NCBI GenBank assembly: GCA_040766505.1
Contig: JAXGQJ010000007.1
Span: 21,232 to 85,231 of the forward strand
Reading direction: 5' to 3'
From: Clostridiales bacterium
GTDB taxonomy: Bacteria > Bacillota > Dehalobacteriia > UBA7702
Length of the DNA: 64,000 nucleotides
The translations under genes and the position numbers were made by a program. Below are positions 16,081-43,702 of the stretch, in pieces. Every line of letters begins with the position of its first letter. The first letter of the stretch is position 1. Under the pieces are notes generated by a model that ran no database searches, was not told the origin of the DNA, and saw only the letters and a program-made list of their open reading frames with translations.

Positions 16081-16175
16081 AATTGTAGCGAGCTTTTTTT
16101 GCAGGGATCGTCAGGAAGCGACGCTATCCCTGTTGAAGATATTTCCAAATTGTCAAAATTGAGGGGGAAAGACGC

Positions 16176-17650: not shown

Positions 17651-19632
17651 AGAGAACCGGCGTTTTCATTTGCCATTGCGGCACCAATATCTCCCAAACC
17701 GTAGACTGCGGCGGCGTCGCCGAGGCGGCGAAGGATTTGCCCGGCGTGGCCTATAGCACCGACTATAAATATATGTGTTCCGATCCGGGGCAGAACATGA
17801 TCATCGACGCCATCAAAGAGCACAATCTCGACCGCATCGTCGTCGCCTCCTGTTCCCCCCGTATGCACGAGCCAACCTTTAGAAAATGCATCGCCAAGGC
17901 GGGGCTGAACCCCTATATGGTGGAAATGGCCAATATCCGGGAACATTGCTCTTGGGTTCATTCGGATAAGGCCAAGGCGACGGCGAAAGCCACCGACCTT
18001 GTCCGCATGGCCACCGCCAAAGCGATGAAGAATGTGCCGCTGCAAAAATCGACGATTTCCATCCACAAGCGGGCCCTCGTCATCGGCGGCGGCATCGCCG
18101 GCATCCAGGCGGCCCTCGACATTGCCGACGCCGGCTATACCGTGGATCTGTTGGAACGGGAAGCCTCCATCGGCGGGAAGATGGCCCAGATCGACAAAAC
18201 CTTCCCCACCATGGACTGTTCCGCCTGTATCCTGACGCCGAAAATGGTCGACGCCTCCCAGCACCCGAACATCAATATCATCGCCTACAGCGAAGTGGAA
18301 AAGGTGGACGGCTATGTCGGCAATTTTGATGTGACGATCAAACGGAAGGCCACTTCCGTCGACCCGGTCAAATGCACCGGCTGCGGCGCTTGCTACAACA
18401 AATGCCCGAATAAGAAAAAGATTCCCAGCGAGTTCGAATGCGGCATGACGACGAGAACCGCGATCTATGTGCCGTTCCCCCAGGCGGTGCCGAATAAGCC
18501 CGTGATCGACCGGGAACATTGCACCTATTTTACAAAGGGCAAATGCAAAATTTGTTCCACCGTCTGCCCCACCGGGGCCATCAATTATGAAGATCAGGAC
18601 GAATTTGTGACGATCCGCTACGGCGCCATCGTCGTCGCCACCGGCTTTGATCTCTTCGACCATTCGGTTTACGGGGAATATGGCTATGGCAAATACCCCG
18701 ACGTGATCACCGGTTTGCAGTTCGAGCGTCTCGTCAATGCCTCCGGCCCCACCATGGGCCATATCCAGCGCCCCTCCGACGGGGAAGAGCCGAAAAATGT
18801 TGTTTTCATCAAATGCGTCGGCTCCCGGGATGAGAAAAAGGGCAAAAAATACTGTTCGAAGGCCTGCTGCATGTATACGGCGAAGCACGCCACCATGGTA
18901 AGGGATAAGATCAAGGATTCCAATGCCGTCATTTTCTATATGGACGTGCGCACCGCCGGCAAGGGCTATGAGGAATTTTATCTGCGGGCCAATGACGAAT
19001 ATGGCGTCGACTATGTCCGGGGCCGCGTTTCCCGTATCTATCAGGAAGGGAAGAAGCTGATCGTCAAAGGGGAGGACACATTGATGGACAAGGCCGTCAC
19101 CGTCGAAGCCGATCTGGTGGTGCTGGCCACCGCCATGGTGCCCCAGGCCGACGCCGGAGATTTGGCGCGGAAGGTCGGTTTCTCCTATGACCAGGACAAT
19201 TTCTTTACCGAAGCCCACCCCAAACTCCGCCCGGTGGATACCTTCACCGCCGGCGTATTTTTGGCCGGGGCCTGCCAGGGGCCTAAGGACATTCCCGATT
19301 CGGTTTCCCAGGCCGGGGCCGCCGCCTCCAAGGTGATCGGCCTGCTTTCCAAAGACGAGATGGACACCGAGGCCATCGTCGCCGCCGTCGATACGGATCG
19401 TTGTTCCGGCTGCGGCTTCTGCGTCAATGTCTGCCCCTACCATGCGCTGGAATTGGTGGATCTGACGGAACGCTGCGGCTGTAACAATGTGACCCGCCAG
19501 GTGGTTCAGGTAAACCGGGGCCTCTGCCAAGGCTGCGGCGCTTGCACCGTCAATTGCCGTTCCAATGCTTTGGATCTGATGGGCTATACCAATGAACAAA
19601 TCTTAGCGGAGGTGGATGCCTTATGTCTGTAA
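17647..19632 (+). CDS. hdrA: heterodisulfide reductase subunit A (FAD, multiple 4Fe-4S)
   Basis: 661 aa. VIGGGIAGIQAALDIADAG dinucleotide fold, CTGCGACYNKCP, CKICSTVCP, CSGCGFCVNVCP, CQGCGACTVNC. Confidence 0.9.
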   Translation: MKRTGVFICHCGTNISQTVDCGGVAEAAKDLPGVAYSTDYKYMCSDPGQNMIIDAIKEHNLDRIVVASCSPRMHEPTFRKCIAKAGLNPYMVEMANIREHCSWVHSDKAKATAKATDLVRMATAKAMKNVPLQKSTISIHKRALVIGGGIAGIQAALDIADAGYTVDLLEREASIGGKMAQIDKTFPTMDCSACILTPKMVDASQHPNINIIAYSEVEKVDGYVGNFDVTIKRKATSVDPVKCTGCGACYNKCPNKKKIPSEFECGMTTRTAIYVPFPQAVPNKPVIDREHCTYFTKGKCKICSTVCPTGAINYEDQDEFVTIRYGAIVVATGFDLFDHSVYGEYGYGKYPDVITGLQFERLVNASGPTMGHIQRPSDGEEPKNVVFIKCVGSRDEKKGKKYCSKACCMYTAKHATMVRDKIKDSNAVIFYMDVRTAGKGYEEFYLRANDEYGVDYVRGRVSRIYQEGKKLIVKGEDTLMDKAVTVEADLVVLATAMVPQADAGDLARKVGFSYDQDNFFTEAHPKLRPVDTFTAGVFLAGACQGPKDIPDSVSQAGAAASKVIGLLSKDEMDTEAIVAAVDTDRCSGCGFCVNVCPYHALELVDLTERCGCNNVTRQVVQVNRGLCQGCGACTVNCRSNALDLMGYTNEQILAEVDALCL

Positions 19633-20084
19633 GCGAAGAAGTCAAAACCACAACGGCGACAGAAGAGGAATGGCAGCCTAAAATCCTCGTATTCGCTTGC
19701 CAATACTGCACCTATGCCGGGGCGGATTTGGCGGGTTTAAGCCGCCTCCAGTACCCTCCCACCACCCGGGTTTTGCGGGTGCCCTGTTCCGGCCGGACGA
19801 ACCCCCAATTTGTCATCCGCGCCTTTCAAAAAGGGATCGACGGCGTGCTGGTGGCCGGCTGCCATCCCGGCGATTGCCACTTTTCCACCGGCAACTATTT
19901 CGCCCGCCGCCGCTATCTCTTGATGAAGCGGATGATGGATTTCATCGGCATCGATTCCCGCCGCTTCCATGTGCGCTGGATTTCCGGTTCCGAAGGGCCG
20001 AAATTCCAGCAGGTGGTCACCGAAATCACCGCAGAGATCAAGGCTTTGGGGCCAAACAGAAAGTGGAGGGATGAAGATGCGTGA
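19623..20084 (+). CDS. mvhD: MvhD/FlxD-type methyl-viologen-reducing hydrogenase delta-subunit-like protein
   Basis: ILVFACQYCTYAGADLAG...LRVPCSGR...LVAGCHPGDCHF matches the MvhD pattern. Confidence 0.85.
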   Translation: MSVSEEVKTTTATEEEWQPKILVFACQYCTYAGADLAGLSRLQYPPTTRVLRVPCSGRTNPQFVIRAFQKGIDGVLVAGCHPGDCHFSTGNYFARRRYLLMKRMMDFIGIDSRRFHVRWISGSEGPKFQQVVTEITAEIKALGPNRKWRDEDA

Positions 20085-20958
20085 TATCAGCCAAGACATG
20101 CGGGCCATCGCCAAAAAGCTGCTGGCCGACGGTACCGTCGGCCTCGTGCTCGGCTGGGAAAAGGGCAATCTGTGGTATAAGAGCGCCCCGGCCTTCATCT
20201 CCGATCCGGAAGATACGGGCCGCCTGGTCTTTGACGATTTCTGCTACCATAATTTAAGCAAATACCTGCTGGATCACCGGGATAGGGAGGGAAAGATCGC
20301 CGTTTTCGCCAAAGGCTGTGACAGCCGTTCCCTCGTCGGCATGATCCAGGACAATCAGATCGCCAGGGAAAAGCTGTACATCGTCGGCATTCCCTGTCCC
20401 GGCCTGAAAGAGGAGAAGGCCGCCGTCGGCAAAAAGCCCGGCGCGGAACTGCCGGAGGCGAAAAAATGCGCCCTCTGTCTCTTCCCCAATCCGGTGGTCT
20501 ATGATGAATTGATCGGCGAGGCCGTGCCGGAGCGGGAAGGAAAGCGGGATCTGATTTTGGAACAGGTGGAAGCCATGTCCCAAGACGAGAAATATGCCTT
20601 CTGGCAGGAACAGTTTTCCGCCTGCATCCGCTGTTTCGCTTGCCGCAATGTTTGCCCCGTCTGCTCCTGCCGGGAATGCTGCTTCGATTCCACGCCCCCC
20701 CAATGGCTGGGGAAAGCGGAAAATCCGGTGGAGAATTCCTTCTATCACCTCACCCGGGCCCTGCACATGGCGGGACGCTGTGTGGGCTGCGGTGAATGTG
20801 AGCGGGTCTGCCCGATGGGCCTGCCGGTGATGTTGTTGAACCGCAAGCTCAGCCAGGATTTAGAGGCGCTCTTTAAGGAATCGCCCGCCGGTACGGTGCT
20901 GGAGGATACCCCCGCCATGAACCATTTCCGGCTCGACGATCCGGAAGAATTTATGTGA
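20071..20958 (+). CDS. 4Fe-4S dicluster protein (FlxC-like)
   Basis: CIRCFACRNVCPVCSC and CVGCGECERVCP motifs. Start overlaps the mvhD stop. Confidence 0.7.
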   Translation: MKMRDISQDMRAIAKKLLADGTVGLVLGWEKGNLWYKSAPAFISDPEDTGRLVFDDFCYHNLSKYLLDHRDREGKIAVFAKGCDSRSLVGMIQDNQIAREKLYIVGIPCPGLKEEKAAVGKKPGAELPEAKKCALCLFPNPVVYDELIGEAVPEREGKRDLILEQVEAMSQDEKYAFWQEQFSACIRCFACRNVCPVCSCRECCFDSTPPQWLGKAENPVENSFYHLTRALHMAGRCVGCGECERVCPMGLPVMLLNRKLSQDLEALFKESPAGTVLEDTPAMNHFRLDDPEEFM

Positions 20959-20970
20959 GGAGGCGGCAGG

Positions 20971-21973
20971 ATGAAAGGGATTAAAAAAGATCAACTCAAT
21001 GGGCTGTTAAAAGCCATGTCCGGCGATTACCAAGTGTTCGTCCCCGCCAAAACCTCCGATGAAGTGACGAAGTTCGCTCCTTATCAGGACGGTATTGCAA
21101 TGTTTTGGCAGGAAAACACCTTTGCTTTCGCCAAAAGACATCTTCTTCCCCCAAACGGAAAAGATGTACCGTTTTAAAGCCAAAGGTTCTAAGGTAGACA
21201 TTGAAACTCTGCCGCCGGCGGATGGCCCTAAAATTCTCTTCGGCATCCGCTCCTGCGATGCCCAAAGCATCGACTGTATGGATAAGGTCTTTTTGACCCG
21301 GGGCTATGAAGACGGTTTTTATAAAGCCAGGAGGGAAAACGCCCTGCTTTTCGCTTTGGCCTGTACCAGCCATGCCGATACCTGCTTCTGCACCTCGATG
21401 GGGGTGGATCCGCAACAGGCCCCCCTCGCCGATGTACAGATGAGCGATGTGGGCGACGCCTATGCGCTGGAAGCCAAAACCCCCGCCGGAGAGGCGGCGC
21501 TGCAAAAGTACCAAAGCCATTTAACGGAATTGTCGAACCCGAAAATGCTGCCGCTGGATGAAATCCTGATCCATGTGGATATGGACGGCGTTTCCGAAAA
21601 GCTGGAAACGATGTTCGAACATCCGATCTGGGATGAGGTTTCTCCGAAATGCATCGGCTGCAGCACCTGCACCTATGTATGCCCCACTTGCTATTGCTTC
21701 GATATCGACAATCAGCTCCGGGGAGAAGAGGGGGCGAAAATCCGCTGTTGGGATTGCTGCATGTTTTCGGAATACAGCCGCATGGCCGGCGGGCACAATC
21801 CCCGCCCTTCGAAAAAGGAACGGGTGCGCAACCGCTTTATGGACAAATTGCTTTACAATAAGAAACGCCATGGCCAGATCTTCTGCGTCGGCTGCGGCCG
21901 CTGCGTGGCCAAATGCCCGGTCAATCTTGAGATTGCCACCATCATCCAAAAAGTAAAGGAGGCGGCAAACTAA
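20971..21973 (+). CDS. AsrA/FlxB-like 4Fe-4S subunit (one frameshift near 21100-21125)
   Basis: N-terminal piece 20971-21177 joins ORF 21095-21973 (...LLSPKDIFFPQTEKMYRF...CIGCSTCTYVCPTCYCF...CVGCGRCVAKCP). Confidence 0.7.
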
Positions 21974-22807
21974 ATGACGGCCGAAGAAATTAAAAAGATC
22001 AATGCCCTCGTACCCATCAAAGGGAAAATCATCAAAATCAACCAGGAAACCTCGGACACCAAGACCTATACCATCACCGCCGAAGACGGCACGAAGCCCT
22101 TTGCCCCCAAGCCCGGTCAGTTGGGGATGCTCTCCATCCCCCAGATCGGCGAGGCGATGTTCTCCATCACCCACCAGGGGGAAAACACCATCGATATGGC
22201 GATCAAAAGCGTCGGCGCGCTGACCAATGCCCTCTTCGAAGTTGAGGAAGGCCAGGAATGCGGCATCCGCGGCCCCTATGGCAACGGCTTCCCGCTGGAC
22301 AAATGCAAAGGCCGGGACATCCTTTTCATCGCCGGCGGCATCGGCCTCGCGCCGGTGCGCAGCCTGATCATGCACTGCATCGAAAACCGGGCCGATTATG
22401 GCAAGCTGACGGTGGTCTACGGCGCCCGCTCCTATGGGGATCTGGTTTTTAAAGACGATATTCTGGAAAACTGGCCCAAAGTGGAAAATATGGACGTTTT
22501 CGTTACCATCGACCGGGGCGAAGAATGCTGGAAGCAGCATGTCGGCTTCGTTCCCGCCTATGTGGAGGAGCTGAATCCGGCGCCGACGCTGACCTTCGTC
22601 TGCGGCCCGCCGATCATGATCAAATTTACCCTCCAGTCGCTGATGAAGATGGGGTATGACGAGGACGAAGTCATCACCACGATGGAAATGCGCATGAAAT
22701 GCGGGATCGGCAAATGCGGCCGCTGCAATATCGGCAGTTGCTTCGTCTGCCTCGACGGCCCGGTCTTTACGATGCGGGAAATGAACGCGCTGCCCCCGGA
22801 ATATTAA
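21974..22807 (+). CDS. AsrB/FlxA-like FAD/NAD(P)-binding oxidoreductase with a C-terminal 2Fe-2S
   Basis: 277 aa. FNR-like fold (LFIAGGIGLAPVRSL) and CGIGKCGRCNIGSCFVCLDGP. Confidence 0.75.
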   Translation: MTAEEIKKINALVPIKGKIIKINQETSDTKTYTITAEDGTKPFAPKPGQLGMLSIPQIGEAMFSITHQGENTIDMAIKSVGALTNALFEVEEGQECGIRGPYGNGFPLDKCKGRDILFIAGGIGLAPVRSLIMHCIENRADYGKLTVVYGARSYGDLVFKDDILENWPKVENMDVFVTIDRGEECWKQHVGFVPAYVEELNPAPTLTFVCGPPIMIKFTLQSLMKMGYDEDEVITTMEMRMKCGIGKCGRCNIGSCFVCLDGPVFTMREMNALPPEY

Positions 22808-22828: not shown

Positions 22829-23574
22829 GAGGGAATGGCCGCATGGCCATTCCCTCAGATATATAAAATTCAAGTCATTCTGTAGACAAACTCCCTGCGC
22901 AGCGACCTTGGACGATCCGCAAAAGGATTTTGGGAAAGATCGGTAACCGTTACATGGAACGTGGCGTCGAAAAATTTATTGTGTAGCAGGGGATCGTCTG
23001 AAAGGGGGCCAGGCCCCGCTTTCAGGTATCTCAATTTATAGCGCCGTAGGCGCGTCAGCTTGTAGACTTTGTCTACAAGCGAGGGAATGGCCGTATGGCC
23101 ATTCCCTCAAACTGAAGAAAAACTCCCTGCGCAGCGACCTTGGACGATCCGCAAAAGGATTTTGGGAAAGATCGGTAACCGTTACATGGAACGTGGCGTC
23201 GAAAAACTTATTGTGTAGCAGGGGATCGTCTGAAAGGGGGCCAGGCCCCGCTTTCAGGTATCTCAATTTATAGCGCCGTAGGCGCGTCAGCTTCTTGACT
23301 TTGTCTACAGTCTGAGGGAATGGCCGCATGGCCATTCCCTCAAACTGTAGACAAACTCCCTGCGCAGCGACCTTGGACGATCCGCAAAAGGATTTTGGGA
23401 AGGATCGGTAACCGTTACATGGAACGTGGCGCCGAAAAACTTATTGTGTAGCAGGGGATAGTCTGAAAGGGGGCCAGGCCCCGCTTTCAGGTATCTCAAT
23501 TTATAGCGCCGTAGGCGCGTCAGCTTGTAGACTTTGTCTACAAGCTGAGGGAATGGCCGCATGGCCATTCCCTT
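22829..23574. repeat. tandem array of 3 near-identical ~232-bp non-coding units with 4 copies of a 28-nt perfect palindrome
   Basis: 170-nt cores at 22891-23060, 23123-23292 and 23356-23525 differ at only a few positions. The palindrome GAGGGAATGGCC-GCAT/GTAT-GGCCATTCCCTC lies at 22829-22856, 23081-23108, 23314-23341 and 23547-23574. A TGTAGAC-TTT-GTCTACA motif sits next to it. Confidence 0.9.
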
Positions 23575-28891: not shown

Positions 28892-29899
28892 ATGGCGAGA
28901 ATGTATTATGACAATGACGCGGATCTTTCCTTTTTGCAGGGGAAGAAAATTGGCGTCATCGGCTACGGTTCCCAGGGCCATGCCCAATCCCAGAACTTGA
29001 AGGAAAGCGGCCTCGATGTGATCGTGGCGGAATTGCCCGGCTGTCCCAATTGGGAGCAGGCGGTTCGGGACGGAATGGCGGTGATGACCTCGGCGGAACT
29101 GGCGAAGCAGGCCGATGTGATTCAGATCCTGGCCCCCGATGAATTGCAGGCCAGAATTTATAAGGCGGATGTGGCCCCCAATCTCAAGCCCGGCATGGCC
29201 CTCGTTTTTTCTCACGGCTTCAACATTCATTTTTCCCAGATCATCCCGCCGCCGGAAATCGATGTGATCATGGTGGCGCCGAAAGGGCCCGGCCATCTTG
29301 TCCGCCGCACCTTTAGCGAGGGCAGCGGCGTGCCGGCTTTGATCGCCATCTACCAGGACGCTTCCGGCAAAGCGAAAGACGTTGCCCTGGCCTGGGCCAA
29401 AGGCATCGGCGGCACCCGGGCCGGCGTTATCGAAACCACCTTTAAGGAAGAGACGGAAACCGACCTGTTCGGTGAACAAACGGTGCTCTGCGGCGGCCTT
29501 TCCCACCTGTTGAAGGCCGGTTTCGAAACCCTGGTGGAAGCGGGATACCAGCCGGAGATCGCCTATTTTGAATGCATCCATGAAGCGAAGCTGATCATCG
29601 ACCTGATCTATGAAGGCGGCATCTCCACAATGCGCTATTCCATCAGCGATACGGCGGAATGGGGCGACCTCTCCGTCGGCCCCGACATCATCGACGCCGG
29701 CGTGAAAGAACGGATGAAAACGGCGCTCGAAAACATCCAAAATGGCAAGTTCGCCAAAGAATGGATCGCCGAAAACCAAGCGGGTAGGCCCCAATACCAT
29801 GCGCTGCGCCGCCAAGGCCAAGAGCATCAGGTTGAACAGGTTGGCGCGGAATTGCGGAAGATGATGCCGTTTATTAAGGCCACCGTAAAAATCAAATAA
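28892..29899 (+). CDS. ilvC: ketol-acid reductoisomerase
   Basis: 335 aa. [40 protein letters not shown]... Confidence 0.95.
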
Positions 29900-30328: not shown

Positions 30329-31273
30329 TTATTCGGCGGCGGTGGCGGCTTCCAATTTTTCCACTTTGGCTTCCGTGGCGGTTTCCGCGGCGGGGGCCGG
30401 TTTCTTTTTCAGCGCCGAATAGAACATCATGATGGAGGTATAGACCAACACGCAAACAACGATCCAGGTCAAAACGTAAAGGGGCAGTTCTTTCACGACA
30501 TAAACGGCGAGGATGACGCCGATGGTGCCGGCGATTTGGCCGACGAGATTGGCTTTAAGATCCAGCGCGCCTTCTTTCAAAAAGCGGAACCCGGCGGCGG
30601 GCATCAGGAAGGTATAACCGCCGAACATGATCGGAAATGCCGCCCGGGGGCTCATCCCCATGGCATAGCAGACCGCCATCATCGGCGCATAACAGCCGAT
30701 GCCGGCGGCGGCCAGCATACCGAAGATAAAGAAGATTATGGTGCTGGCGATCAGACGCCACCCGGCGAGGCCGATGGCTTCACCGCCGGCGGGCCAAACG
30801 CCGATTTGGCGCAATACCATCGTTGTGGCGACGATCAGAAGGCCGGTGCCGAGAATGATCTGAATCGGCTTTTCCGGAAAATGGGAAACATATTTCGCGC
30901 CGATGGCGGCGCCGGCGGCCACCGCCGCGATCAAACAAATGAGGGTGATCGGATCCACCTTCACGATGGTGACGAAAAGCAGCGTCTCCACGGTGCTGGG
31001 GATCAGCGTGCAGGTGTTTAGGGTGCCGGGGATCAATTTGTCCGGCACAAGCCGGAAGAGTTTAAAGAGCGCGGTCTGCGGCGCATTGCCGCCGATGCCC
31101 AAAGCATCGAAAAACATCGTGCCGCCGATGACGGCCCCCAACCCCGCGGTGCTGGCATTGGATATCTTATCCCGGTTTTTCTTTGCATAGCGGACGAGGG
31201 CGGTGCCGTATAATGTGGCGCAAAGAATCGCGCCGACTTGGATCATGCGAATGAGGATGGTGCCCATAATCAA
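30329..31273 (-). CDS. TauE/SafE (DUF81) family anion permease
   Basis: 314-aa polytopic ORF with the duplicated glycine-rich DUF81 pattern (GLGAVIGGTMFFDALGIGGNAPQTALF and IFGMLAAAGIGCYAPMMAV). It starts 34 nt after the mttB stop. Confidence 0.65.
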   Translation of the reverse strand: MIMGTILIRMIQVGAILCATLYGTALVRYAKKNRDKISNASTAGLGAVIGGTMFFDALGIGGNAPQTALFKLFRLVPDKLIPGTLNTCTLIPSTVETLLFVTIVKVDPITLICLIAAVAAGAAIGAKYVSHFPEKPIQIILGTGLLIVATTMVLRQIGVWPAGGEAIGLAGWRLIASTIIFFIFGMLAAAGIGCYAPMMAVCYAMGMSPRAAFPIMFGGYTFLMPAAGFRFLKEGALDLKANLVGQIAGTIGVILAVYVVKELPLYVLTWIVVCVLVYTSIMMFYSALKKKPAPAAETATEAKVEKLEAATAAE

Positions 31274-31307: not shown

Positions 31308-32779
31308 TTACCGGGCGGCGTATTCTTCCTCCGCCTCGGCGATGATGTCGCTTAGGCCTTGTGCCGCCCCGTCGGGCAAAGCGGGCACCCGGTGGGTGGC
31401 CAAGATATGTTCCGCTTCCGCATAGGCCCGTTCCGCCAAATCCTTCGACCCTTCCATCACCCACGCTTCCCGCATCGAGCGGTCGAAGAGCTTCGTGGCA
31501 CTCTGTTCATGGCGGAACCGCTGGAAGGTGTGGGGATGGCTGATCAGTTCACCGCCGGGGCCGATCTCCTTGATCAGTTCAACGGCGATATTTTCATCGC
31601 TGATCTTGATGCCGTCCATCACCCGGCGGATCATCGTATAGATTTCATTGTCGATTACGAATTGGGCCAGGTCGAAAGTGATGCCAAGGTCCAACATGCC
31701 GGCGCCGTAGATCAAATTGGCGCCGCCCTGGGCCGCCAATAATGCCGTCAATGTTTTCTCGTGGGCCGCCTGTCCGTCGGGAACTTTGCTGTCCGCCTAG
31801 CCCCCCGCCACAAAGCTCGGCAGTTTGTAGAATTGGGCCAGCCTTGCCACCGAGGCGCTGATCATGCCGAGTTCCGGCGCGCCGACGGGGGCCGTCGTAT
31901 AGCGCATGTCCATAATCGTCGTCGAGCTGGCATAAATACAGGGGGCGCCTTTTTGCGTCAGTTGGCTTAAAACGATCACGCTCAGCACTTCCGCATTGTG
32001 GGTGGCGAGGGTTCCCGCCAAAGTCACCGGCGAGGTGGCCCCGGCCATCGCCATCGAGATGATATTGATCGGCACATTTTCCTTGGCCGCCAGCATCACA
32101 ACGTCGGTGCATTCGGGGATCAACTTTAACAGGCTGGTGGGGCAGACATTGAAGCTGATCAGCGGCCGCTGCCGCAGCGCTTCTTGGCCGCCGGCCACCA
32201 GGGCCGCCATACGGATCAGTTTTTTGGCATTGTCGATGCCGTCGGCGCCGATAAAGAAGTGTTTTGTCGTATTGGGGAAAATGGCCTCGGCATTGTGGAG
32301 GGCCTGGGCGGGGCCGGGGCAATCTTGGGATACCACCGCCCGATAGGTGATGTCCATATTGGGCAAATAATCGCTCATCCGGCTGCATTGGGCCAAATCC
32401 GCCTTGGTGCTGGGACGGTACTCTTTCGTTTTCATATCCCGCATCATGACGCCTTCGCCGAAATTGACGAAGCCAATCCTGTTTTTTTCCAGAACATAGT
32501 CCTTTTCCGGCAGCCGCCCCGACAGCCGCAAGGTGGGGGGTGCTGTACGAATGGCCTCTTCTACCATGTAGGGCGGCATTTTTACGATTTTGCTTTTCTC
32601 GTCGACGCTGGCGCCGCCGGCGGCGAAAACCTCTCTCGCTTCCGGGCTGTCGACCCGCACGCCGATATTGTGCAAAATATCCAGCGTCGCAACGTGGATG
32701 GTCTCCAGTTCATCCTGGGAATAGCCGACGATGCCAAAGCTGCCGAGCCCCGGAAAACTGCCTGTGTGTTCCTGGTCAT
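31308..32779 (-). CDS. mttB: trimethylamine:corrinoid methyltransferase family protein MttB with one in-frame UAG (putative pyrrolysine); 1-nt frameshift near the 5' end
   Basis: ORFs 31797-33050 and 31308-31751 share one frame and are joined by a single TAG. Translation: ...YSQDELETIHVATLDILHNIGVRV...[47 protein letters not shown]... The ATG at 32779 follows AAGGAGG but lies in the +1 frame relative to the body. Confidence 0.8.
31797..31799 (-). other. in-frame amber codon (candidate pyrrolysine site)
   Basis: Plus-strand CTA equals minus-strand TAG. It is flanked by conserved MttB sequence in the same frame on both sides. Confidence 0.7.
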
Positions 32780-32831
32780 TCTGATCTTGCCTCCTTAATC
32801 GATGTATGGAATACTCCTGCCCCTTTCTATA

Positions 32832-32847
32832 GCAAATTCCGTGCCAT
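32832..32847 (-). promoter_or_regulatory. sigma-54 (-24/-12) promoter of the Pyl-mttB operon
   Basis: The minus strand reads TGGCAC-GGAAT-TTGCT, an exact TGGCAC-N5-TTGCW match, about 53 nt upstream of the ATG. Confidence 0.8.
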
Positions 32848-33030
32848 TTGGCGCGGCGGTTTGAAAAAGAAAACGCAAAGGCGAAAAAAACGGCGTGTTC
32901 CCGCCGTTTTTCACGTAAAAGATCCGGGCCACCGGCTTTTTTCTTTGCCGATGGCCCGCCAGTTTTTTGTTTGCCCGCCTTTTGCCGCGGATCGGATGCA
33001 AAATAGGGGAAGAACGCCTTCGGCTTCCCG

Positions 33031-33060
33031 CCCTTCATGCATTTTTGCATGAACGAATGC
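33031..33060. promoter_or_regulatory. candidate enhancer (UAS) for the sigma-54 activator
   Basis: CCCTTCATGCAT-ttt-TGCATG-aa-CGAATGC, about 190 nt upstream of the -24/-12 element. The same motif occurs at 36829-36872. Confidence 0.55.
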
Positions 33061-33070
33061 CGTTGGCCCT

Positions 33071-34845
33071 CTATTTCGATTTGTTTAAAATGCGGATCAC
33101 GGTGCTTTGGTTGACCCCCAAAGCCTCGGCGGCCCGGTAGGAATTGCCGTATTGCTGGTAGGCATTTTTAACGAGGAGGGCTTCCAATTCCGCTTTGGCG
33201 GCCTTTAAGGGCAGCAGCGCCGTGCAGATTACCTGGCCCCGGGGGTCATATTCTCGGAAAAGATTTCATTGAACTGGTCGATGGTGATCAAATCCCCGTC
33301 GCTGGCGACGATCAGCCGTTCAACGGAATTCATCAGCTCCCGCACATTGCCGGGCCAGGAATAATTTAGGAAAAAGCGAACCACTTCGGCGCTGAAACGT
33401 TTTTTCGTCTGGTGCCGGTGGTTAAAGCTCTTAATGAATTGGTTTGTCAGCGGGACAATGTCCTCCCGCCGGTTCATGAGGGGCATCAGCGCAATGGGCA
33501 TAACTTTCAACCGGTAATACAGGTCATTGCGGAAGCTCCCTTCCTCTACCATCGCTTTCAGATCCCGGTTGGTGGCGGCGACGATCCGCACATCCAGCGG
33601 AATGCGTTTCGTGCCGCCGACCCGGACGATTTCCCGATCCTGCATGAATTCCAGCAGCTTCACCTGGAGGGCCAGATCCATTTCGCCGATCTCGTCAAAG
33701 AAAACGGTGCCGCCATTGGCGGTTTCCAATTTGCCGATTTTGCCCTTTTTGGCGGCGCCGGTGAAGGCCCCGGCTTCATAGCCGAACAGCTCCGATTCCA
33801 GCAAATCCTTGGGGATGAGGCCGCAATTGATCTTGACGAAGGGCTTGGCGTTTCGCTTGCTTAAACGGTAAACCAGATCGGCGACCACTTCTTTGCCGGT
33901 GCCGGATTCCCCTCGATGAGAACGGAAACATCGGTGGGGGCGATCTTGGCGACGAGGCTTTGCACCTGCTTCATCGGGGGCTTTCAAAATATAGCCTTCC
34001 TGCTGGATGATATGTTGTTGCAGGGCCTTGATCTCCTCTTTGCTGGAATTCAGTTCCCGCGAGATTTTATCCACCTGGGAATTGATGCCGGCGATGTCCT
34101 TGGAGGTGCTCAAAACGTGGATCATATTGCCCGCCCCGTCAAAAATCGGTTGGGCGGTGGCGAGGATATGGCAGCCGGAGGAAAGCTCCACGATTTCCGC
34201 CACCTTATCGCCGGTGCGCAAAACCTCCAGGGTGACGCTTTTCGACACGACGGCGTCCTTTTCGAAATCGCTGACATGGCGGCCCACATAGTCTTCCAGC
34301 CGGATGCGGCAAAGGCTTTCGCCCCGGGGATTGGTGTATTGGATGAAGCCCTGGCCGTCGGTGATGAAAACATCGTCCTCCATCGCGTCGAAAATGCGTT
34401 TGTAGAATGCGATCTGTTTTTCCATCTGCCAGGTCAGCCGCTCTTTTTCCAAGAGCATGTCCTTATAGAGGTCTATCTGCTCCAATATGCCGATGATCTC
34501 GCCGTCGTCCTTTAAAACCAGCGCCAATTTGGGGGTGGTTTTTAATTGCGGCGGTAAGAAATGGGTTTCGGCGGCGCCGACGCTTTCCTCCCGGATTTGG
34601 GCGGCAAAATCCCCCCTCAGGGTCAGATGGGGCAGGGGCAGCAGCGCCGGGTCGTCGACGGCGACGGCGTCCCCTTTCTCCGCCGCCAGTAGCCCCAGGC
34701 AAAGCTGGGCCGTGCCGAACAATTTATAGGGCGCGTCGCCGCAAACGACATAGTCCGCCCCGCTTTGGCTAAGTTCCCGGGGGGTCAGAACGGCATCGGC
34801 GGCGCGCAGGATAAAATTGCGGTTGATATAGCGATGGAGGTTCAT
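33071..34845 (-). CDS. sigma-54-dependent transcriptional activator (PAS-AAA+-Fis HTH); frameshifts near 33235 and 33900-33960
   Basis: Walker A GESGTGKE, ESELFGYEAGAFTGA (GAFTGA loop), RIVAATNRDL, WPGNVRELMN. C-terminal HTH ...YGNSYRAAEALGVNQSTVIRILNKSK stop (TAG 33071-33073). Confidence 0.85.
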
Positions 34846-35101: not shown

Positions 35102-36513
35102 TTATTTCCCTTGGATGGCGGCCTGCAAGGCTTCTTCCACCGCCTGGTCCGCCTCGGGAGACAGCGCCAGGTTCACATGGTTCTTGTGGAGGTCTTTCGC
35201 TTTTTCCAGGGCGCGCTGGCCATAGGTCGTCTTATGTTGTCTCCAGCCGTCATGGTTGTTGCGTTCGCAGAGGATGGGATTCCACAGTTCGCTGCGAAGA
35301 TGCTGCAAGGTGTGCATGTGGCCGAGGAAGTTCCGCTCCCCGTTGACGACTTCATGGGTCACGTCGACGGCCAAGGTGTCCTCATTGACCACATTGCCCT
35401 GGATGATTCTCTTGATCATAGAGGAAATTTCATTGTCCATAACGATGGTGGGATAGTCGGCGATCAGGGCATTGTCGGTGGAACCGCCGGTGCCGAGGAT
35501 GTCGGCGCCTACCATGGCGGGAACGAGGGCGTTCATCATCCGCTCAAAGCCGCTCTGCTCGTCCAATACCTTCGAGGAACCGGAGAAGCCCGTCGGTTCG
35601 CTGGGAACGCCATAATAGGCCGCCAGCTGGGCGGAGCAGGTGCCGGCCAAGCCCATTTCCGGTGCGGTCCAAAGGCCGACGGCGGTGCGCATATCGATGG
35701 AGGTCACCCGGGGGGAGAAGATCGTGGGATGTCCCGGCTTCATCAACTGGGCGATCACAAGGCCCGCCAGCATTTCCGCATTGTGCATCGTAACGGAACC
35801 GATCAGCGTCATCGGGCCGGTAGCCCCCAGCATCGGGCAGGGGATGATGCCCAGCGGCAAATTGGCTTCCACGGTGTCCAACAGGCCGTTGGCGGGGCCT
35901 TCGGCATAATCCAATGGGCTGATGGGGGAAACCTGCAAATAGGCGATGGGCTTTTTCACGAGATTGTCCATGCCGCCGACGGCTGCCGCCAGCACTTGGG
36001 GGATATATTTCATTTCATGGTCGGATTCAATGCAGATGTGCAGAGGCTTGGCGGTGTTCCGCACCATCGCGACGGTTTCCGCGGTCACCGCGGCATGTTC
36101 CGGAATGTCTTTGGGGAAGATGGCGGAAATGATGTCGATATAATCCAGCCCATCACAAACCCGGATAAAATCGCACAGGTCTTTATAGCGGACGAGGCGC
36201 CGTTCACCGGTTTCAAGGTCATTGATAAAGGGGAACCGATGCAGGTTTGGGCAAAGACCTTGCCTTCGCCGAAGGTCACATTGCGGCTTTCGTCGCGGCC
36301 ATAGAGGGTGAAGGAACGGGGCGCTGTTTTGATCGCCTTTTCCACCAGATCCCGGGGGAAATAGACGGTGCCGTCCTGAACGGTCAGTCCCAATGCGGCG
36401 CATTTTTTCAAGAAGCGATCCGATTGACTGCGAACGCCGGTCTTTTCCAGAATTTTCAGCGTCGCTTCATGGATCATTTCCACATCTTGTTTGCTGAGAT
36501 ACGAAAAGTTCAT
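35102..36513 (-). CDS. MttB-superfamily methyltransferase without an internal stop (non-Pyl type); one frameshift near 36240
   Basis: MNFSYLSKQDVEMIHEATLKILEKTGVRS...TAPRSFTLYGRDESRNVTFGEGKVF joins ...INDLETGERRLVRYKDL...GFSGSSKVLDEQSGFERMMNAL...; RBS GGAGG. Confidence 0.8.
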
Positions 36514-36567: not shown

Positions 36568-36583
36568 AGCAAGAACCATGCCA
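36568..36583 (-). promoter_or_regulatory. sigma-54 (-24/-12) promoter of the non-Pyl mttB homolog
   Basis: The minus strand reads TGGCAT-GGTTC-TTGCT, about 55 nt upstream of the ATG. Confidence 0.75.
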
Positions 36584-39836: not shown

Positions 39837-39975
39837 GCCGCCGCCGCCGGGGGAAAGGTCATCAAATGAACACAGTATGCGTCCTGGAAAGCAATTTGCC
39901 TGTATGATATAATGAAAGGAATCTATCGCCGGGAAGGGCCATGGATTCCTTTCCTGCTTTGGTTGGGAGGCCATC

Positions 39976-42590
39976 ATGTTAAAAGCATTCAAAAACCTGT
40001 TTGACGACAATGCGAAGGACATCAAGAAATACGAGAAAAGGGCGGAGGAGGTCAATGGTTGGGAAGCGGAGATCGCCGCCTTGAGCGATGCGGAACTAAA
40101 GGGGAAAACCGCCTATTTTAAAGCGAAGCTGGAGGCGGGGGCCACCCTCGACCATATTTTACCGGAAGCCTTTGCCGTGGTGCGGGAAACGTCGAAACGG
40201 GTGCTCGCCATGCGCCATTTCGATGTGCAGTTGATCGGCGGCATGGTTTTGCACGACGGGCGCATCGCCGAGATGAAAACCGGGGAAGGGAAAACCCTGG
40301 TGGCGACTTTGCCCGCCTATCTGAACGCCCTCACCGGCAAAGGGGTTCACATCGTCACCGTCAACGACTATCTCGCCAAACGGGACAGCGAATGGATGGG
40401 CCGGATCTACCGCTTTCTCGGTCTGGAGGTGGGGCTGAATGTCCACGGCCTCAATCCCGACGAAAAGCTTGCCGCCTACAGCGCCGACATCACCTATGGC
40501 ACCAACAATGAATTCGGCTTCGACTATCTGCGGGACAATATGGCGGTACGCTCCGAAGCCGTCGTGCAGAAGCACCTCTATTATGCGATCATCGACGAAG
40601 TGGACAGCATCCTCATCGACGAAGCGCGGACGCCGCTGATCATCTCCGGCCAGGCGGAAAAGCCGACGGAGCACTACTATACCGTCGCGAAGCTGATCCC
40701 CCGGCTGAAACCGGAGGAAGATTTCAATGTCGACGAGAAGATGAAGGCCGCCACCCTCACGGAAGAGGGGATCAGCAAGATGGAAAAGTATCTCGGCCTA
40801 GAAAATTTGTACGACGATGAGAATACGGAATGGAGTCATCTGGTGTCCCAGGCCTTAAAAGCCAGAACCCTGTTCCGCCGGGATCGGGACTATGTGGTGA
40901 AGGACGGCGAGGTGATCATCGTCGATGAGTTCACCGGCCGCCTGATGTTCGGCCGCCGCTATAGCGATGGGCTTCACCAGGCCCTGGAAGCCAAAGAAGG
41001 GTGAAGATCGAACGGGAAAGCCAGACCCTTGCCACCATTACCTTTCAGAATTATTTCCGCATGTATGAAAAACTGTCGGGAATGACCGGTACCGCCAAAA
41101 CCGAGGAATCGGAATTCACAAAGATCTATCGCGTCGATGTGGTGCAGGTGCCGCCGAACCGGGAGATGGTTCGGGTGGACATGCCCGATGTGATCTACCG
41201 CACGATGAACGGCAAACAGGCCGCCATCGTCGAAGAGATCGTCGCCGCCCATGCCCAGGGCCAACCGGTGCTGGTGGGCACCGTGTCCATCGAAAAATCT
41301 GAGATCCTGAGCCGGGAACTGAAGCGGCGGGGCGTCCGCCACAGCGTGCTGAACGCCAAATTCCATGAGATGGAGGCGCAAATCATCGCCCAGGCCGGGG
41401 CCTTGGCCGCCGTCACCATCGCCACGAATATGGCGGGCCGCGGCACCGACATCCTGCTGGGCGGCAATCCGGAGTTTTTGGCCCGGGATCGGCTGCGCCA
41501 GATCGAGGAAAATGGCCAGGAAGGGGATTATGAGCCCTCCTGGCCGAATACAAAACCAAGTGCGACAGGAGAAGGAAGAAATCGTCGCCGCCGGCGGCCT
41601 CTATGTTCTCGGCACCGAACGCCATGAAAGCCGCCGCATCGACAACCAGCTTAGGGGCCGCAGCGGCCGCCAGGGAGATCCGGGCAAAAGCCGCTTTTTC
41701 CTCCTCGATGGAGGACGATCTGATGCCTTCTTCGGTTCCGCCAATATGGCGGCGGTGATGGACAAATTCGGCATCGACGATACGATGCCCATCGATTCGG
41801 CGATGGTGTCCAAAAGCCTGGAAAATGCCCAGAAAAGGTGGAAAACAACAATTTCGATATGCGGAAGCATGTGCTGGAATATGACGATGTCATGAACAAT
41901 CAGCGGGAGGTGATCTATGGCCAGCGCCGGGAGGTGCTGCTGAAGGAAAACATCCGGGAACAGGTGCTGCGCATCCTGCATAAGGCGATGGATCGGGTTT
42001 TGGAGAATCATACCAATGACAGCCAGCATCCGGAAGAGTGGGATTTGGAAACCATCGCCGAAGAGGCGAGGGTTCTGCTGCCCCACCATACCCATACCGC
42101 CGCGTCCCTGTCTCTGCTTTCGGCCCAGGAGATCGGGGAGCGGCTTCACGCCGATGTCGACGCTGCCTTTGCCGCCCGGGAAGAGGAGCTGGGCCGGGAA
42201 AATATGGAAAACCTCGCCCGTTTCATCATTTTGCGGGTGGTGGACCAGCAATGGATGGACCATCTGGACGCAATGGACCAGCTGCGCCAAGGCATCGGTT
42301 TAAGGGCCTATGGCCAAAAGGATCCGTTGGTGGAATATAAATTTGAAGCCTTTGACATGTTCCAGGAAATGGTTTACAATATCCAACGGGAAGTCTCCCG
42401 CTATGTGATGCGGGTCAATGTGGTGGAACGGCCCAAAGAGGCCAAGATCACCGCGGAAAACCGTTCCGGCGAAGAAGCCCAGGGGAAAAAGCCGGTGCGC
42501 AAGGAGAAAACCGTCGGCCGCAACGATCCCTGTCCCTGTGGCAGCGGCAAAAAATACAAAAAATGTTGCGGTCAGAACAATAAGGGGTGA
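39976..42590 (+). CDS. secA: preprotein translocase ATPase SecA (at least three homopolymer frameshifts)
   Basis: [21 protein letters not shown]...[41 protein letters not shown]...; C-terminal zinc motif [19 protein letters not shown]. The junction at 41000 has GGG where GGGG restores ...EAKEGVKIERE... Confidence 0.95.
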
Positions 42591-42594
42591 TTTG

Positions 42595-43702
42595 ATGCTA
42601 TCCGACCTTAAACAGGATTTACAGGTGATTAAACGCAGATTGGCAGATCTGAGGGATGCACTTTGACGTCGATGGCTTAACGGAAACCATCGACGGTTTG
42701 GAGCGGGAAAGCGCCGGCGACGGCTTCTGGCTCGACCAGCAGGCGGCCCAAAAGGTGCTGCAAACGATTACCGTGCTGAAAAGCCAACGGGAAACCTATC
42801 GGAAGGTGGAACGGGTTTTCGACGATGTCTATGCCTACTGGGAACTGGCGACGGAAGAGGGAGAGGAAAGCCTCGCCGAGGAGATCGCCGCCCAGATCAA
42901 AAAAAGCGAGAAAGAAGTCGACCGTCTGGAATTGAATACGCTGCTGAGCGGCAAATATGACGGCCATCATGCGATCTTATCGCTCCATGCCGGCAGCGGC
43001 GGTGTGGAAGCCCAGGACTGGACAGGGATGCTCTACCGCATGTATATGCGCTACTGTGAGAAACAGGGTTATAAAACGGAACTGATCGACATGCTTCCCG
43101 GTGAAGAGGCCGGTACGAAAAGCGTCACCTTCGGGGTGGAGGGCCACAATGCCTTCGGCTATCTGAAATGCGAGAAAGGCGTCCACCGCCTGGTGCGCAT
43201 CTCTCCCTTCGATTCCAATCGCCGCCGCCATACCTCCTTCGCCTCCCTCGACGTTATCCCCCAGGTGGCGGACGACGATGAGATCGAAATCCATGAGGAC
43301 GATCTCAGGATCGACACCTACCGTTCCGGCGGCGCCGGCGGCCAGCATGTCAATAAAACCGATTCCGCCGTGCGCATCACCCATATCCCCACCGGCATTG
43401 TCACCCAATGCCAGGACGAGCGCTCCCAGCACGCCAATAAAGACAAGGCGATGAAGATTTTAAAGGCCAAGCTGCTCGATAAAAAACGGATCGAACAGGA
43501 AAGCGAACTGGCGGGCATCCGCGGCGAACAGCAGGAGATCGGCTGGGGCAGCCAGATCCGCTCCTATGTCTTTCATCCCTATAAAATGGTGAAAGACCAT
43601 CGAACCGGCGTGGAGGTCGGCAATGTCGACGCGGTGATGGACGGCGAGCTGGACGATTTTATTTTCGGCTATCTGAAAGAATTCGTAAAGAAAAACAAAT
43701 AA
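42595..43702 (+). CDS. prfB: peptide chain release factor 2 with the programmed +1 frameshift
   Basis: MLSDLKQDLQVIKRRLADLRDAL-(CTT TGA C) continues in +1 as DVDGLTETIDGLE...; SPF and GGQ motifs (RISPFDS, SGGAGGQHVNKTDSAVRITH). Confidence 0.95.
42651..42667 (+). other. prfB programmed +1 frameshift site
   Basis: SD-like GAGGG, a 5-nt spacer, then CTT TGA C (TGA at 42664-42666). Confidence 0.9.

What the first reader, a model, noticed from the sequence alone, without database searches (positions are those of the whole stretch)
31308..32779. In-frame amber codon in a full-length MttB gene: candidate pyrrolysine recoding
Two minus-strand ORFs (31797-33050 and 31308-31751) are in the same frame and are separated by one TAG (plus-strand CTA at 31797-31799). 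Reading through gives ...KLPSFVAGG-[TAG][35 protein letters not shown]... Both halves look like trimethylamine:corrinoid methyltransferase (MttB family). The uninterrupted paralog at 35102-36513 aligns across the same block (...GFSGSSKVLDEQSGFERMMNAL...), so the TAG sits inside a conserved segment and not at a domain boundary. Counting from the RBS-preceded ATG at 32779, the TAG is about codon 327 of about 490. That is roughly two-thirds into the gene, where the single Pyl codon lies in Methanosarcina MttB. The errors visible elsewhere in this assembly are homopolymer indels, not substitutions, and the frame is the same on both sides. A sequencing artefact is therefore the less likely explanation. 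No pylT or pylSBCD genes are in this window.
Basis: partly seen in the sequence, partly recalled or inferred. Interest (0 to 1): 0.7.

Follow-up and report, generated by a model that had tools for sequence, protein, structure and literature searches.

The report
Pyrrolysine codon in bacterial mttB
The in-frame TAG is real and sits at the exact position where trimethylamine methyltransferases carry the 22nd amino acid, pyrrolysine, so this is a correctly spotted but ordinary bacterial example of a well-known recoding event.

Summary
On the minus strand a single TAG (31799-31797) separates two in-frame halves of one MttB gene. The TAG aligns on Pyl334 of the solved Methanosarcina barkeri MttB structure. 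With the TAG read through, the protein passes NCBI's equivalog model for Pyl-type MttB (683 bits, cut-off 525). It also keeps the catalytic Gly110, Met249 and Tyr364 equivalents. In 24 orthologous loci compared column by column from other genomes (43-85% identity) the codon is always TAG. Flanking codons vary synonymously, and the 155 codons after the TAG are under purifying selection. This rules out a sequencing error or a decaying pseudogene. The window holds no pylT, pylS or pylBCD and no corrinoid protein, and its source genome could not be found. Relatives with the same TAG gene do carry complete pyl clusters, including the closest one found, Peptococcaceae UBA7702. Two details need correcting. 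The ATG at 32779 is one base out of frame with the rest of the gene, through a homopolymer deletion in an indel-rich assembly. The "uninterrupted" paralogue is also frameshifted. New context: a sigma-54 promoter and an adjacent activator gene, in a four-gene module conserved in the nearest clade. Verdict: a new member of a known kind, of low to moderate interest.

The parts
31308..32779 (-). Pyl-type trimethylamine:corrinoid methyltransferase gene mttB. Once one missing base near codon 10 is restored it has 490 codons, with Pyl at codon 328 and the TAA stop at 31310-31308.
   Evidence: Translation. PDB 7xcl/7xcm, E 1e-113 over residues 15-490. Pfam MTTB on both halves. NCBIfam TIGR02369, 683.2 bits against a cut-off of 525.
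31797..31799 (-). In-frame UAG, the predicted pyrrolysine codon (residue 328, equivalent to Pyl334 of M. barkeri MttB).
   Evidence: It aligns on X334 of 7xcl, and on K in the variant chain 7xcm. It is TAG in all 24 orthologous loci, while flanking codons show 2-10 synonymous variants.
31311..31796 (-). The 162 codons downstream of the UAG, covering the C-terminal third of MttB and including the Tyr364 equivalent (Y358).
   Evidence: Pfam MTTB profile positions 341-498. dN/dS is 0.05-0.24 against orthologues, similar to the N-terminal part. The 15 codons between the TAG and the first possible restart (TTG 31751) are among the best-conserved residues.
32748..32757 (-). Homopolymer stretch (TTTT CC GGGG on the coding strand) where one base is missing in the assembly. 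The deletion puts the ATG at 32779 out of frame with the rest of mttB.
   Evidence: The orthologue L001 has GTT TTT AAC at this point.
32790..32796 (-). Ribosome-binding site AAGGAGG, 10 nt upstream of the ATG at 32779.
   Evidence: Read directly from the sequence. Orthologues have GGAGG at the same place.
32831..32846 (-). Sigma-54-type promoter TGGCAC-N5-TTGCT (-24/-12 elements), starting 66 nt upstream of the start codon.
   Evidence: Only 3 matches occur in the whole window on both strands. The same motif lies upstream of the orthologous gene in 13 of 17 loci.
32889..32905 (-). Terminator-like hairpin followed by a T-run, between the activator gene and the sigma-54 promoter.
   Evidence: This is a consensus scan only, and the number of such sites in the region does not exceed chance.
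31700..31799 (-). Match to Rfam RF02510 PYLIS_3 ('pyrrolysine insertion sequence mttB'). Here it reflects conserved coding sequence, not a supported RNA structure.
   Evidence: 81.8 bits against a gathering score of 38. The model's 8 pairs form in 76.6% of cells against 78.0% in shuffles, with no covariation. RNAalifold gives -5.2 kcal/mol.
33071..34845 (-). Sigma-54 enhancer-binding protein with a PAS sensor, an AAA+ domain and a C-terminal HTH. In this assembly the frame shifts near 33211-33238. Its true stop is a TAG at 33073-33071.
   Evidence: Pfam Sigma54_activat, AAA_lid_14 and PAS. The best NCBIfam match is PrdR, below its cut-off. Frames.
35102..36513 (-). Non-Pyl paralogue of the MttB superfamily, with Ser at the Pyl column. 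It is frameshifted in the assembly between 36109 and 36328.
   Evidence: TIGR02369 gives only 287 + 65 bits, below the 525 cut-off. Frames, the column residue.
36568..36583 (-). Second sigma-54-type promoter, TGGCATGGTTCTTGCT, about 70 nt upstream of the paralogue's start.
30329..31267 (-). TauE/SafE-family permease gene, starting about 40 nt downstream of mttB. It is probably co-transcribed with mttB.
   Evidence: Pfam PF01925. 82% identical to the gene that follows mttB in L001. It is found in the same position in L001-L008 and L016.

Best explanation
This is a genuine mttB gene encoding a pyrrolysine-dependent trimethylamine:corrinoid methyltransferase of a Bacillota (Peptococcia-like) bacterium.

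Decoding (inferred from established Pyl biology): codon 328 (UAG) is read by an amber-suppressor tRNA-Pyl (CUA). That tRNA is charged by a split PylSc/PylSn synthetase with pyrrolysine made by PylBCD. It is delivered by the normal elongation factor in competition with release factor 1. The evidence here does not support any dedicated downstream RNA element.

Catalysis (by homology to M. barkeri MttB): the full-length ~54-kDa enzyme uses the pyrroline imine of Pyl328, helped by the conserved Tyr358 and Gly108. It binds and activates trimethylamine and passes one methyl group to the Co(I) corrinoid of a partner protein. From there a methyl-THF:corrinoid methyltransferase would feed the methyl group into C1 metabolism.

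Regulation (inferred from sequence): transcription starts at a sigma-54 promoter and is controlled by the adjacent PAS-domain enhancer-binding protein. That protein probably also controls the neighbouring non-Pyl MttB paralogue. A TauE-family permease is co-transcribed.

Assembly issue: the frameshift near codon 10 is an assembly homopolymer error, not a mutation.

What is shown: gene identity, the position of the TAG, its conservation, selection on the downstream part, and the promoter motif.
What is inferred: Pyl insertion in this organism, the substrate, the partner proteins (encoded outside the window) and the regulation.
For: - The TAG aligns on Pyl334 of solved MttB (7xcl), in the context [24 protein letters not shown] against lpsyvagsXsdakvpddqaghekt.
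- Gly110, Met249 and Tyr364, named as key or 100% conserved in PMC9842639, are all conserved in that alignment.
- TIGR02369 gives 683 bits against a cut-off of 525.
- All 56 of the 120 best homologues that are 63-85% identical end at ...FVAGG.
- The TAG is invariant in 24 loci from independent genomes, with synonymous drift on both sides.
- dN/dS after the TAG is 0.05-0.24.
- Pyl machinery accompanies orthologues of this gene in four places. It is on the same 301-kb contig as a 76% orthologue. It is in Ca. Formimonas warabiya, where seven Pyl-MttB proteins are reported (PMC9768040). It is in Peptococcaceae UBA7702, which holds the 85% orthologue, as pylSc-pylD-pylT-pylB-pylC-MT2-pylSn. It is also in the MAGs behind L009, L014, L017 and L022.
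- Assembly errors are homopolymer indels. secA is in four frame pieces, and the activator gene and the paralogue are also shifted.
- The sigma-54 promoter is conserved in 13 of 17 orthologous loci.
Against: - No pylT, pylS or pylBCD, no corrinoid protein and no MT2 gene lie in the 64-kb window.
- The source genome could not be found, so the organism's ability to make and insert Pyl is unverified.
- As assembled, the start codon is out of frame. If that were real, the gene would be dead.
- The nearest relatives are only 85% identical. Their pyl genes are therefore evidence for the lineage, not for this strain.
- The substrate is assigned by homology only. The Ca. Formimonas authors themselves raise the possibility of other roles for bacterial Pyl-MttB.
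Confidence: 0.9

Rival explanations
1. The gene is a relic or pseudogene. It descends from a Pyl-mttB, but in this organism it is no longer expressed as a full-length enzyme. Either the pyl genes have been lost, so UAG only terminates and gives a ~36-kDa fragment, or the frameshift near codon 10 is real.
For: The window has no pyl genes and no corrinoid partner. The ATG is out of frame as assembled. The adjacent paralogue and the activator gene are also frameshifted.
Against: Frameshifts also break the essential secA three times and sit at homopolymers, so they are assembly noise. Apart from that one indel, the whole 490-codon frame is intact, at 82% identity to L001 across the TAG. dN/dS is low on both sides of the TAG. 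The catalytic residues, RBS and sigma-54 promoter are all intact.
Confidence: 0.06
2. The TAG is a sequencing or assembly artefact of a sense codon.
For: The assembly is visibly error-prone, and a G6 run lies directly before the TAG.
Against: The errors seen are indels, not substitutions. The frame is the same on both sides of the TAG. All 24 orthologous loci from independent assemblies have TAG at this exact column. The solved enzyme has Pyl there.
Confidence: 0.01
3. The gene is split. The two halves are made as separate polypeptides, with termination at the TAG and re-initiation at TTG 31751, and they assemble into an enzyme without Pyl.
For: Gene callers produce 327-aa and ~146-aa products in every relative.
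Against: The 15 codons between the TAG and the first start candidate encode [15 protein letters not shown], which is nearly invariant at the protein level while varying synonymously. They are therefore translated, and that requires reading through the TAG. No RBS is visible in the printed sequence before TTG 31751. The residue at this position is the catalytic one in the solved enzyme.
Confidence: 0.02
4. Rival on mechanism only: read-through depends on a PYLIS-like RNA structure directly downstream of the UAG, as the Rfam family name suggests.
For: There is a strong match to Rfam PYLIS_3, at 81.8 bits against a gathering score of 38, starting at the TAG.
Against: The model has only 8 base pairs, two of them non-canonical in this sequence. 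Across 24 orthologues the pairs form no more often than in shuffled controls (76.6% against 78.0%, with 484 of 500 shuffles at least as high), and only one double change occurs. The RNAalifold consensus is weak, at -5.2 kcal/mol. [quoted passage not shown]
Confidence: 0.08

Closest known systems
Methanosarcina barkeri MttB (PDB 7XCL, 7XCM, 7XCN; Pyl334)
   Same: It has the same fold family across the full length (E 1e-113, residues 15-490). The UAG/Pyl falls at the identical alignment column. Gly110, Met249 and Tyr364 are conserved, and the length is similar (490 against 495 aa).
   Different: This gene is bacterial, and the Thr111 position is Glu. It is not next to an mttC corrinoid-protein gene or an mttP permease gene. 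It has a sigma-54 promoter. In a bacterium the methyl group would go to tetrahydrofolate rather than coenzyme M (inference).
Bacterial Pyl-MttB genes of Ca. Formimonas warabiya DCMF, Dehalobacterium, Peptococcaceae UBA7702 and Bilophila wadsworthia
   Same: These are orthologues at 60-85% identity with the same TAG and the same [11 protein letters not shown] context. Automated annotation cuts them at the TAG in the same way (Bilophila, PMC7593587). As reported for Bilophila, mttB is not adjacent to the pyl genes.
   Different: The nearest database sequence is only 85% identical, and the window's G+C is 53-63%. In the more distant orthologues (L009, L011, L018, L032) a corrinoid-protein gene follows mttB. 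In the window's clade a TauE-family permease follows instead.
Non-pyrrolysine MttB superfamily members, such as glycine betaine methyltransferase MtgB of Desulfitobacterium hafniense (PDB 2QNE, 9YCE)
   Same: Same Pfam family, PF06253. The window's second MttB gene (35102-36513) belongs to this group.
   Different: These proteins have a sense codon at the Pyl column: Leu in MtgB, Ser in the window's paralogue. They fall below the TIGR02369 cut-off. The gene under study has TAG and passes that cut-off.

Membership tests
Pyl-dependent trimethylamine methyltransferase MttB (NCBIfam TIGR02369, Pfam PF06253) | MTTB domain covering the whole protein | tested here: met
   The N half matches profile positions 35-337 and the C half 341-498 of 500. 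The alignment to PDB 7xcl covers chain residues 15-490.
Pyl-dependent trimethylamine methyltransferase MttB (NCBIfam TIGR02369, Pfam PF06253) | Score above the curated equivalog cut-off, which separates true MttB from non-Pyl superfamily members | tested here: met
   683.2 bits against a cut-off of 525. The paralogue in the same window scores 287 and 65 bits for its two pieces.
Pyl-dependent trimethylamine methyltransferase MttB (NCBIfam TIGR02369, Pfam PF06253) | A single in-frame UAG at the column of Pyl334 | tested here: met
   The query X aligns on X334 of 7xcl, and on K of the variant chain 7xcm. This is the only internal stop in the frame.
Pyl-dependent trimethylamine methyltransferase MttB (NCBIfam TIGR02369, Pfam PF06253) | Active-site residues Gly110 and Tyr364 (100% conserved in Pyl-MttBs) and Met249 | tested here: met
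   FGEG, ISMAM and LIYGAG align with FGTG, LSMAM and TIYGAG of M. barkeri. The residues are named in PMC9842639.
Pyl-dependent trimethylamine methyltransferase MttB (NCBIfam TIGR02369, Pfam PF06253) | UAG conserved among orthologues, and sequence after it under purifying selection | tested here: met
   The codon is TAG in 24 of 24 aligned loci. dN/dS over the 155 downstream codons is 0.05-0.24.
Pyl-dependent trimethylamine methyltransferase MttB (NCBIfam TIGR02369, Pfam PF06253) | pylT, pylS (pylSc + pylSn) and pylBCD present in the same genome | not testable with these tools
   They are absent from the 64-kb window, and the source genome was not found. Pyl clusters are present in relatives with the orthologous gene: pylT-Sc-B-C-Sn in L031 and L033, and all of pylT, Sc, Sn, B, C and D in L104 and L130.
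Pyl-dependent trimethylamine methyltransferase MttB (NCBIfam TIGR02369, Pfam PF06253) | Cognate corrinoid protein (MttC) and a downstream methyltransferase | tested here: inconclusive
   tblastn at E<=10 finds none in the window. In relatives these genes lie next to the pyl cluster or next to mttB, so here they may be encoded elsewhere in the genome.
Pyl-dependent trimethylamine methyltransferase MttB (NCBIfam TIGR02369, Pfam PF06253) | Pyl actually incorporated, and TMA:corrinoid methyl transfer activity | not testable with these tools
   This needs proteomics and an enzyme assay.
PYLIS cis-acting element (Rfam RF02510 PYLIS_3) | Sequence match to the family model at the UAG | tested here: met
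   81.8 bits against a gathering score of 38, model positions 1-100, starting at the TAG.
PYLIS cis-acting element (Rfam RF02510 PYLIS_3) | Conserved secondary structure supported by covariation | tested here: not met
   76.6% of cells are paired against 78.0% in shuffles, with one double change in 192 cells. The alifold consensus is -5.2 kcal/mol.
Non-Pyl MttB superfamily (MtgB-like quaternary-amine methyltransferases) | A sense codon at the Pyl column | tested here: not met
   The gene has TAG there. The neighbouring paralogue at 35102-36513 has Ser and does belong to this group.

The most novel reading that the evidence does not exclude
In this clade the Pyl-MttB gene belongs to a conserved four-gene module under sigma-54 control. 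The module consists of a non-Pyl MttB paralogue, a PAS-domain enhancer-binding protein, the Pyl-MttB and a TauE-family permease. It is unlinked from both the corrinoid protein and the pyl genes. Such a module could serve a pathway other than plain TMA catabolism. For example, the two methyltransferases could demethylate one methylated amine in two steps, or the Pyl enzyme could have a different substrate. Separately, TAG may be almost free of stop-codon duty in this lineage: it ends 1 of 39 likely genes in the window and 0 of 14 in L001. That would make Pyl decoding closer to a codon reassignment than to regulated suppression.
Probability: 0.12. Interest if true: 0.5.

Novelty: new member of a known kind. 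Interest (0 to 1): 0.25.

Why it matters
Automated gene callers cut Pyl-mttB genes at the UAG. All 56 closest database entries are such truncated calls. Recognising the recoded gene therefore corrects the annotation and assigns the organism a likely capacity to demethylate trimethylamine. That trait matters for anaerobic C1 metabolism and, in gut settings, for TMA/TMAO turnover (PMC7593587). It does not change what is known about pyrrolysine. Bacterial Pyl-MttB genes are documented, have a dedicated NCBIfam model, and pylSc was found in at least 566 species-representative genomes. The modest additions are the conserved sigma-54 promoter and activator, the TauE-linked module of this clade, and the lack of support for a PYLIS structure.

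Tried and rejected
- Source genome. An exact 29-base pattern around the TAG found nothing in genome contigs. Exact-protein look-ups of the C-terminal ORF and of the hibernation factor found nothing. A pylT DNA pattern succeeded instead.\n- A PYLIS structure was tested and rejected as a supported element.\n- A sigma-70 promoter scan gave no site above chance upstream of mttB.\n- pylT next to the orthologous mttB loci: none was found within the fetched flanks of L001-L030.\n- Sequencing artefact, split gene and decaying pseudogene were each considered and rejected, for the reasons given under the rival explanations.\n- Structure prediction was not run, because a solved homologue aligns end to end.
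Full report
**The observation**

On the minus strand the sequence reads ...CTG CCG AGC TTT GTG GCG GGG GGC TAG GCG GAC AGC AAA GTT CCC..., with the TAG at 31799-31797. The ORF finder lists 31797..33050 (-) and 31308..31751 (-), and these share one frame. Translating 32780->31308 gives a continuous MttB-like protein with one internal stop...[24 protein letters not shown]..., ending in TAA at 31310-31308. Both halves hit Pfam MTTB: profile positions 35-337 for the first and 341-498 of 500 for the second. The stop therefore lies inside the domain, not at a boundary.

The RBS-preceded ATG at 32779 is not in this frame. It is 980 nt from the TAG, and translation from it collapses into stops. Orthologues begin MTRNTQAVF(N/H)GLGSFGIVGY. 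The window encodes MTRNTQAVF in the ATG frame and FPGLGSFGIVGY in the MttB frame, and tblastn picks up the MttB frame from residue 9. One base is therefore missing in the TTTT-CC-GGGG stretch at 32757-32748. With that base restored the gene has 490 codons and the TAG is codon 328.

The "uninterrupted" paralogue at 35102-36513 is also frameshifted, between 36109 and 36328.

These are assembly errors rather than biology, for three reasons:
- The essential gene secA (39916-42590) is split into four reading-frame pieces carrying consecutive SecA domains.
- The activator gene's C-terminus is shifted near 33211-33238.
- The junctions sit at short homopolymers. One example is GAAGGGTGAAG, where SecA needs GAAGGGGTGAAG.

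**What the gene is**

- Against all PDB sequences the best hits are M. barkeri trimethylamine methyltransferase 7xcl and 7xcm (E about 1e-113, chain residues 15-490).
- The window's stop aligns on the unknown residue X at chain position 334 of 7xcl, which is Lys in the variant chain 7xcm. The context is [24 protein letters not shown] against lpsyvagsXsdakvpddqaghekt.
- The structure paper places pyrrolysine at residue 334. It names Gly110 and Tyr364 as 100% conserved in Pyl-MttBs, and Met249 as the gating residue (PMC9842639). All three are conserved in the alignment, as FGEG, ISMAM and LIYGAG.
- The non-Pyl glycine betaine methyltransferase MtgB (2qne) has Leu at the column.
- With the stop as X, the protein scores 683.2 bits on NCBIfam TIGR02369 (trimeth_pyl, equivalog, cut-off 525). 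The neighbouring paralogue reaches only 287 and 65 bits for its two pieces and has Ser at the column.

**The TAG is selected, not accidental**

- Of the 120 best hits among 5.8 billion proteins, the 56 that are 63-85% identical are 327-330 aa long and end in ...FVAGG. In other words, they are gene calls cut at the same codon.
- I fetched the DNA of orthologues from independent genomes and metagenomes. In 24 loci (43-85% identity) the codon is TAG, and the frame continues for about 160 codons.
- In a codon-by-codon comparison the TAG column has one codon in all 25 sequences (the window plus 24 loci). Neighbouring columns carry 2-10 different codons, mostly for the same amino acid.
- The 155 codons after the TAG show near-saturated synonymous change but dN/dS of only 0.05-0.24, similar to the N-terminal part.
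- The 15 codons between the TAG and the first possible restart codon (TTG 31751) encode the almost invariant ADSKxPDxQAAHEKT. The ribosome must therefore read through the TAG.

Together these results exclude a sequencing artefact, a decaying pseudogene and a two-polypeptide split gene.

**The Pyl machinery**

The window has no tRNA gene. tblastn with PylSc, PylB, PylC, PylD and PylSn, with a cognate corrinoid protein and with the methyl-THF:corrinoid methyltransferase gave only noise at E<=10. ARAGORN does recognise bacterial tRNA-Pyl, so the negative result is meaningful.

The source genome could not be found, so Pyl competence of this organism is untested. The lineage, however, has the machinery:
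- One 301-kb metagenome contig carries a 76%-identical TAG-mttB (L032) and pylT-pylSc-pylB-pylC-pylSn followed by corrinoid-protein and MT2 genes (L031).
- Ca. Formimonas warabiya DCMF carries two orthologues (L011, L012) and the same cluster. NCBIfam confirms PylS_Cterm, PylB, PylC and PylS_Nterm, each above its cut-off. Seven Pyl-MttB proteins are reported for this organism (PMC9768040).
- Peptococcaceae bacterium UBA7702 holds the closest orthologue in the genome collection (L004, 85%). It has pylSc-pylD-pylT-pylB-pylC-MT2-pylSn on another contig (L130).
- The MAGs behind L009, L014, L017 and L022 also show pylT and pylSc.
- pylSc was found in at least 566 species-representative genomes, so bacterial Pyl use is widespread.
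- In Bilophila, too, mttB is not adjacent to the pyl genes and is truncated in public annotation (PMC7593587).

**How read-through works**

Rfam's PYLIS_3 ("pyrrolysine insertion sequence mttB") matches 31700-31799 at 81.8 bits, against a gathering score of 38. However, the model has only eight base pairs, and two of them are non-canonical here. Across 24 orthologues those pairs form in 76.6% of cells against 78.0% in shuffled controls, with a single double change. RNAalifold finds only a weak 6-pair consensus at -5.2 kcal/mol. The Rfam hit therefore reflects conserved coding sequence. The most likely mechanism is plain competition between Pyl-tRNA(CUA) and release factor 1. This is an inference from established Pyl biology and was not tested here.

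**Context and regulation**

- The sequence TGGCACGGAATTTGCT (32846-32831), starting 66 nt upstream of the ATG, matches the sigma-54 -24/-12 consensus.
- The pattern occurs only three times in the window. One of the other two matches is at 36583, about 70 nt upstream of the non-Pyl paralogue.
- The same motif lies upstream of the orthologous gene in 13 of 17 loci.
- Between the two MttB genes lies a sigma-54 enhancer-binding protein with a PAS domain.
- A TauE/SafE-family permease gene follows mttB after about 40 nt.
- The order paralogue, activator, Pyl-mttB, TauE is conserved in the nearest clade (L001-L006 and L016, with partial versions in L007, L008, L019 and L022). More distant orthologues have a corrinoid-protein gene after mttB instead.
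- No convincing sigma-70 promoter is present.

**Comparison and verdict**

This is a bona fide member of the Pyl-dependent MttB family. Every sequence-level defining feature that could be tested is met. The genome-level features (pyl genes, corrinoid partner) and the biochemical ones could not be tested. The gene differs from the archaeal archetype in its regulation and gene neighbourhood. Its nearest database relative is only 85% identical.

The phenomenon is well known, so I rate the finding as a new member of a known kind, with interest 0.25. Its frame count from the ATG and its description of the paralogue need the corrections given above.

Noticed in passing
window 39916-42590 (+), 33211-33238, 36109-36328, 32748-32757: The assembly is rich in one-base homopolymer indels. 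secA is split into four reading-frame pieces. The sigma-54 activator, the MttB paralogue and the start of mttB each carry one frameshift. Any ORF-based reading of this window must allow for this.
   Followed up: yes
window, about 39 likely genes; L001: TAG is almost unused as a terminator. It ends 1 of 39 likely genes in the window (the activator gene, 33073-33071) and 0 of 14 in the related locus L001. By comparison it ends 4 of 18 genes in L031 and 2 of 15 in L032. The sample is small, but it hints at TAG depletion in this clade.
   Followed up: partly
window 22849-23546: Three tandem copies of a 233-nt unit (87-100% identical) lie in an intergenic region. Each contains the palindrome GAGGGAATGGCCGCATGGCCATTCCCTC. 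No Rfam family matches at gathering threshold.
   Followed up: no
L313 2521-3999 and 6496-7974 (JGI Ga0326343_1000534): An MttB homologue 55% identical to the window protein has TGG (Trp) at the Pyl column, within an otherwise Pyl-type context (SFVAGG-W-ADSKVPDAQAAHEKT). It lies 2.5 kb from a TAG-containing mttB and a dimethylamine methyltransferase gene. Among the 120 best homologues, the full-length ones carry His (17), Trp (9), Leu (5) and other residues at this column.
   Followed up: partly
L130 (UBA7702); L031, L033, L034, L047: The gene order of the pyl cluster varies. UBA7702 has pylSc-pylD-pylT-pylB-pylC-MT2-pylSn. The Formimonas/Dehalobacterium-type clusters read pylT-pylSc-pylB-pylC-pylSn-corrinoid protein (followed by MT2 in L031, L033 and L047), with no pylD in the fetched stretch, so pylD must lie elsewhere or be missing.
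   Followed up: partly
window 16137-22807 (+): This is a cluster of HdrC-, HdrB- (CCG domain) and HdrA-like genes, an MvhD/FlpD gene, ferredoxin-domain genes and an NAD_binding_1/DHODB Fe-S gene. It looks like an electron-bifurcating Hdr/Flox-type module typical of anaerobic Bacillota.
   Followed up: no
window 35102-36513 (-); L001 6410-7822 and 12596-19329: The non-Pyl MttB paralogue (Ser at the Pyl column, 70% identical between the window and L001) has its own sigma-54 promoter. In L001 the module sits beside a complete glycine-cleavage gene set (GcvT, H, PA, PB, Lpd, LplA), which suggests a link to glycine-betaine-type substrates. In the window ilvC (28892-29899) lies on that side instead.
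   Followed up: partly
window 42653-43702 (+): A release factor 2 gene (PCRF + RF-1 domains) follows secA. The ORF begins about 10 residues before the PCRF domain. No in-frame upstream segment was looked for, so a programmed +1 frameshift site, if there is one, was not examined.
   Followed up: no
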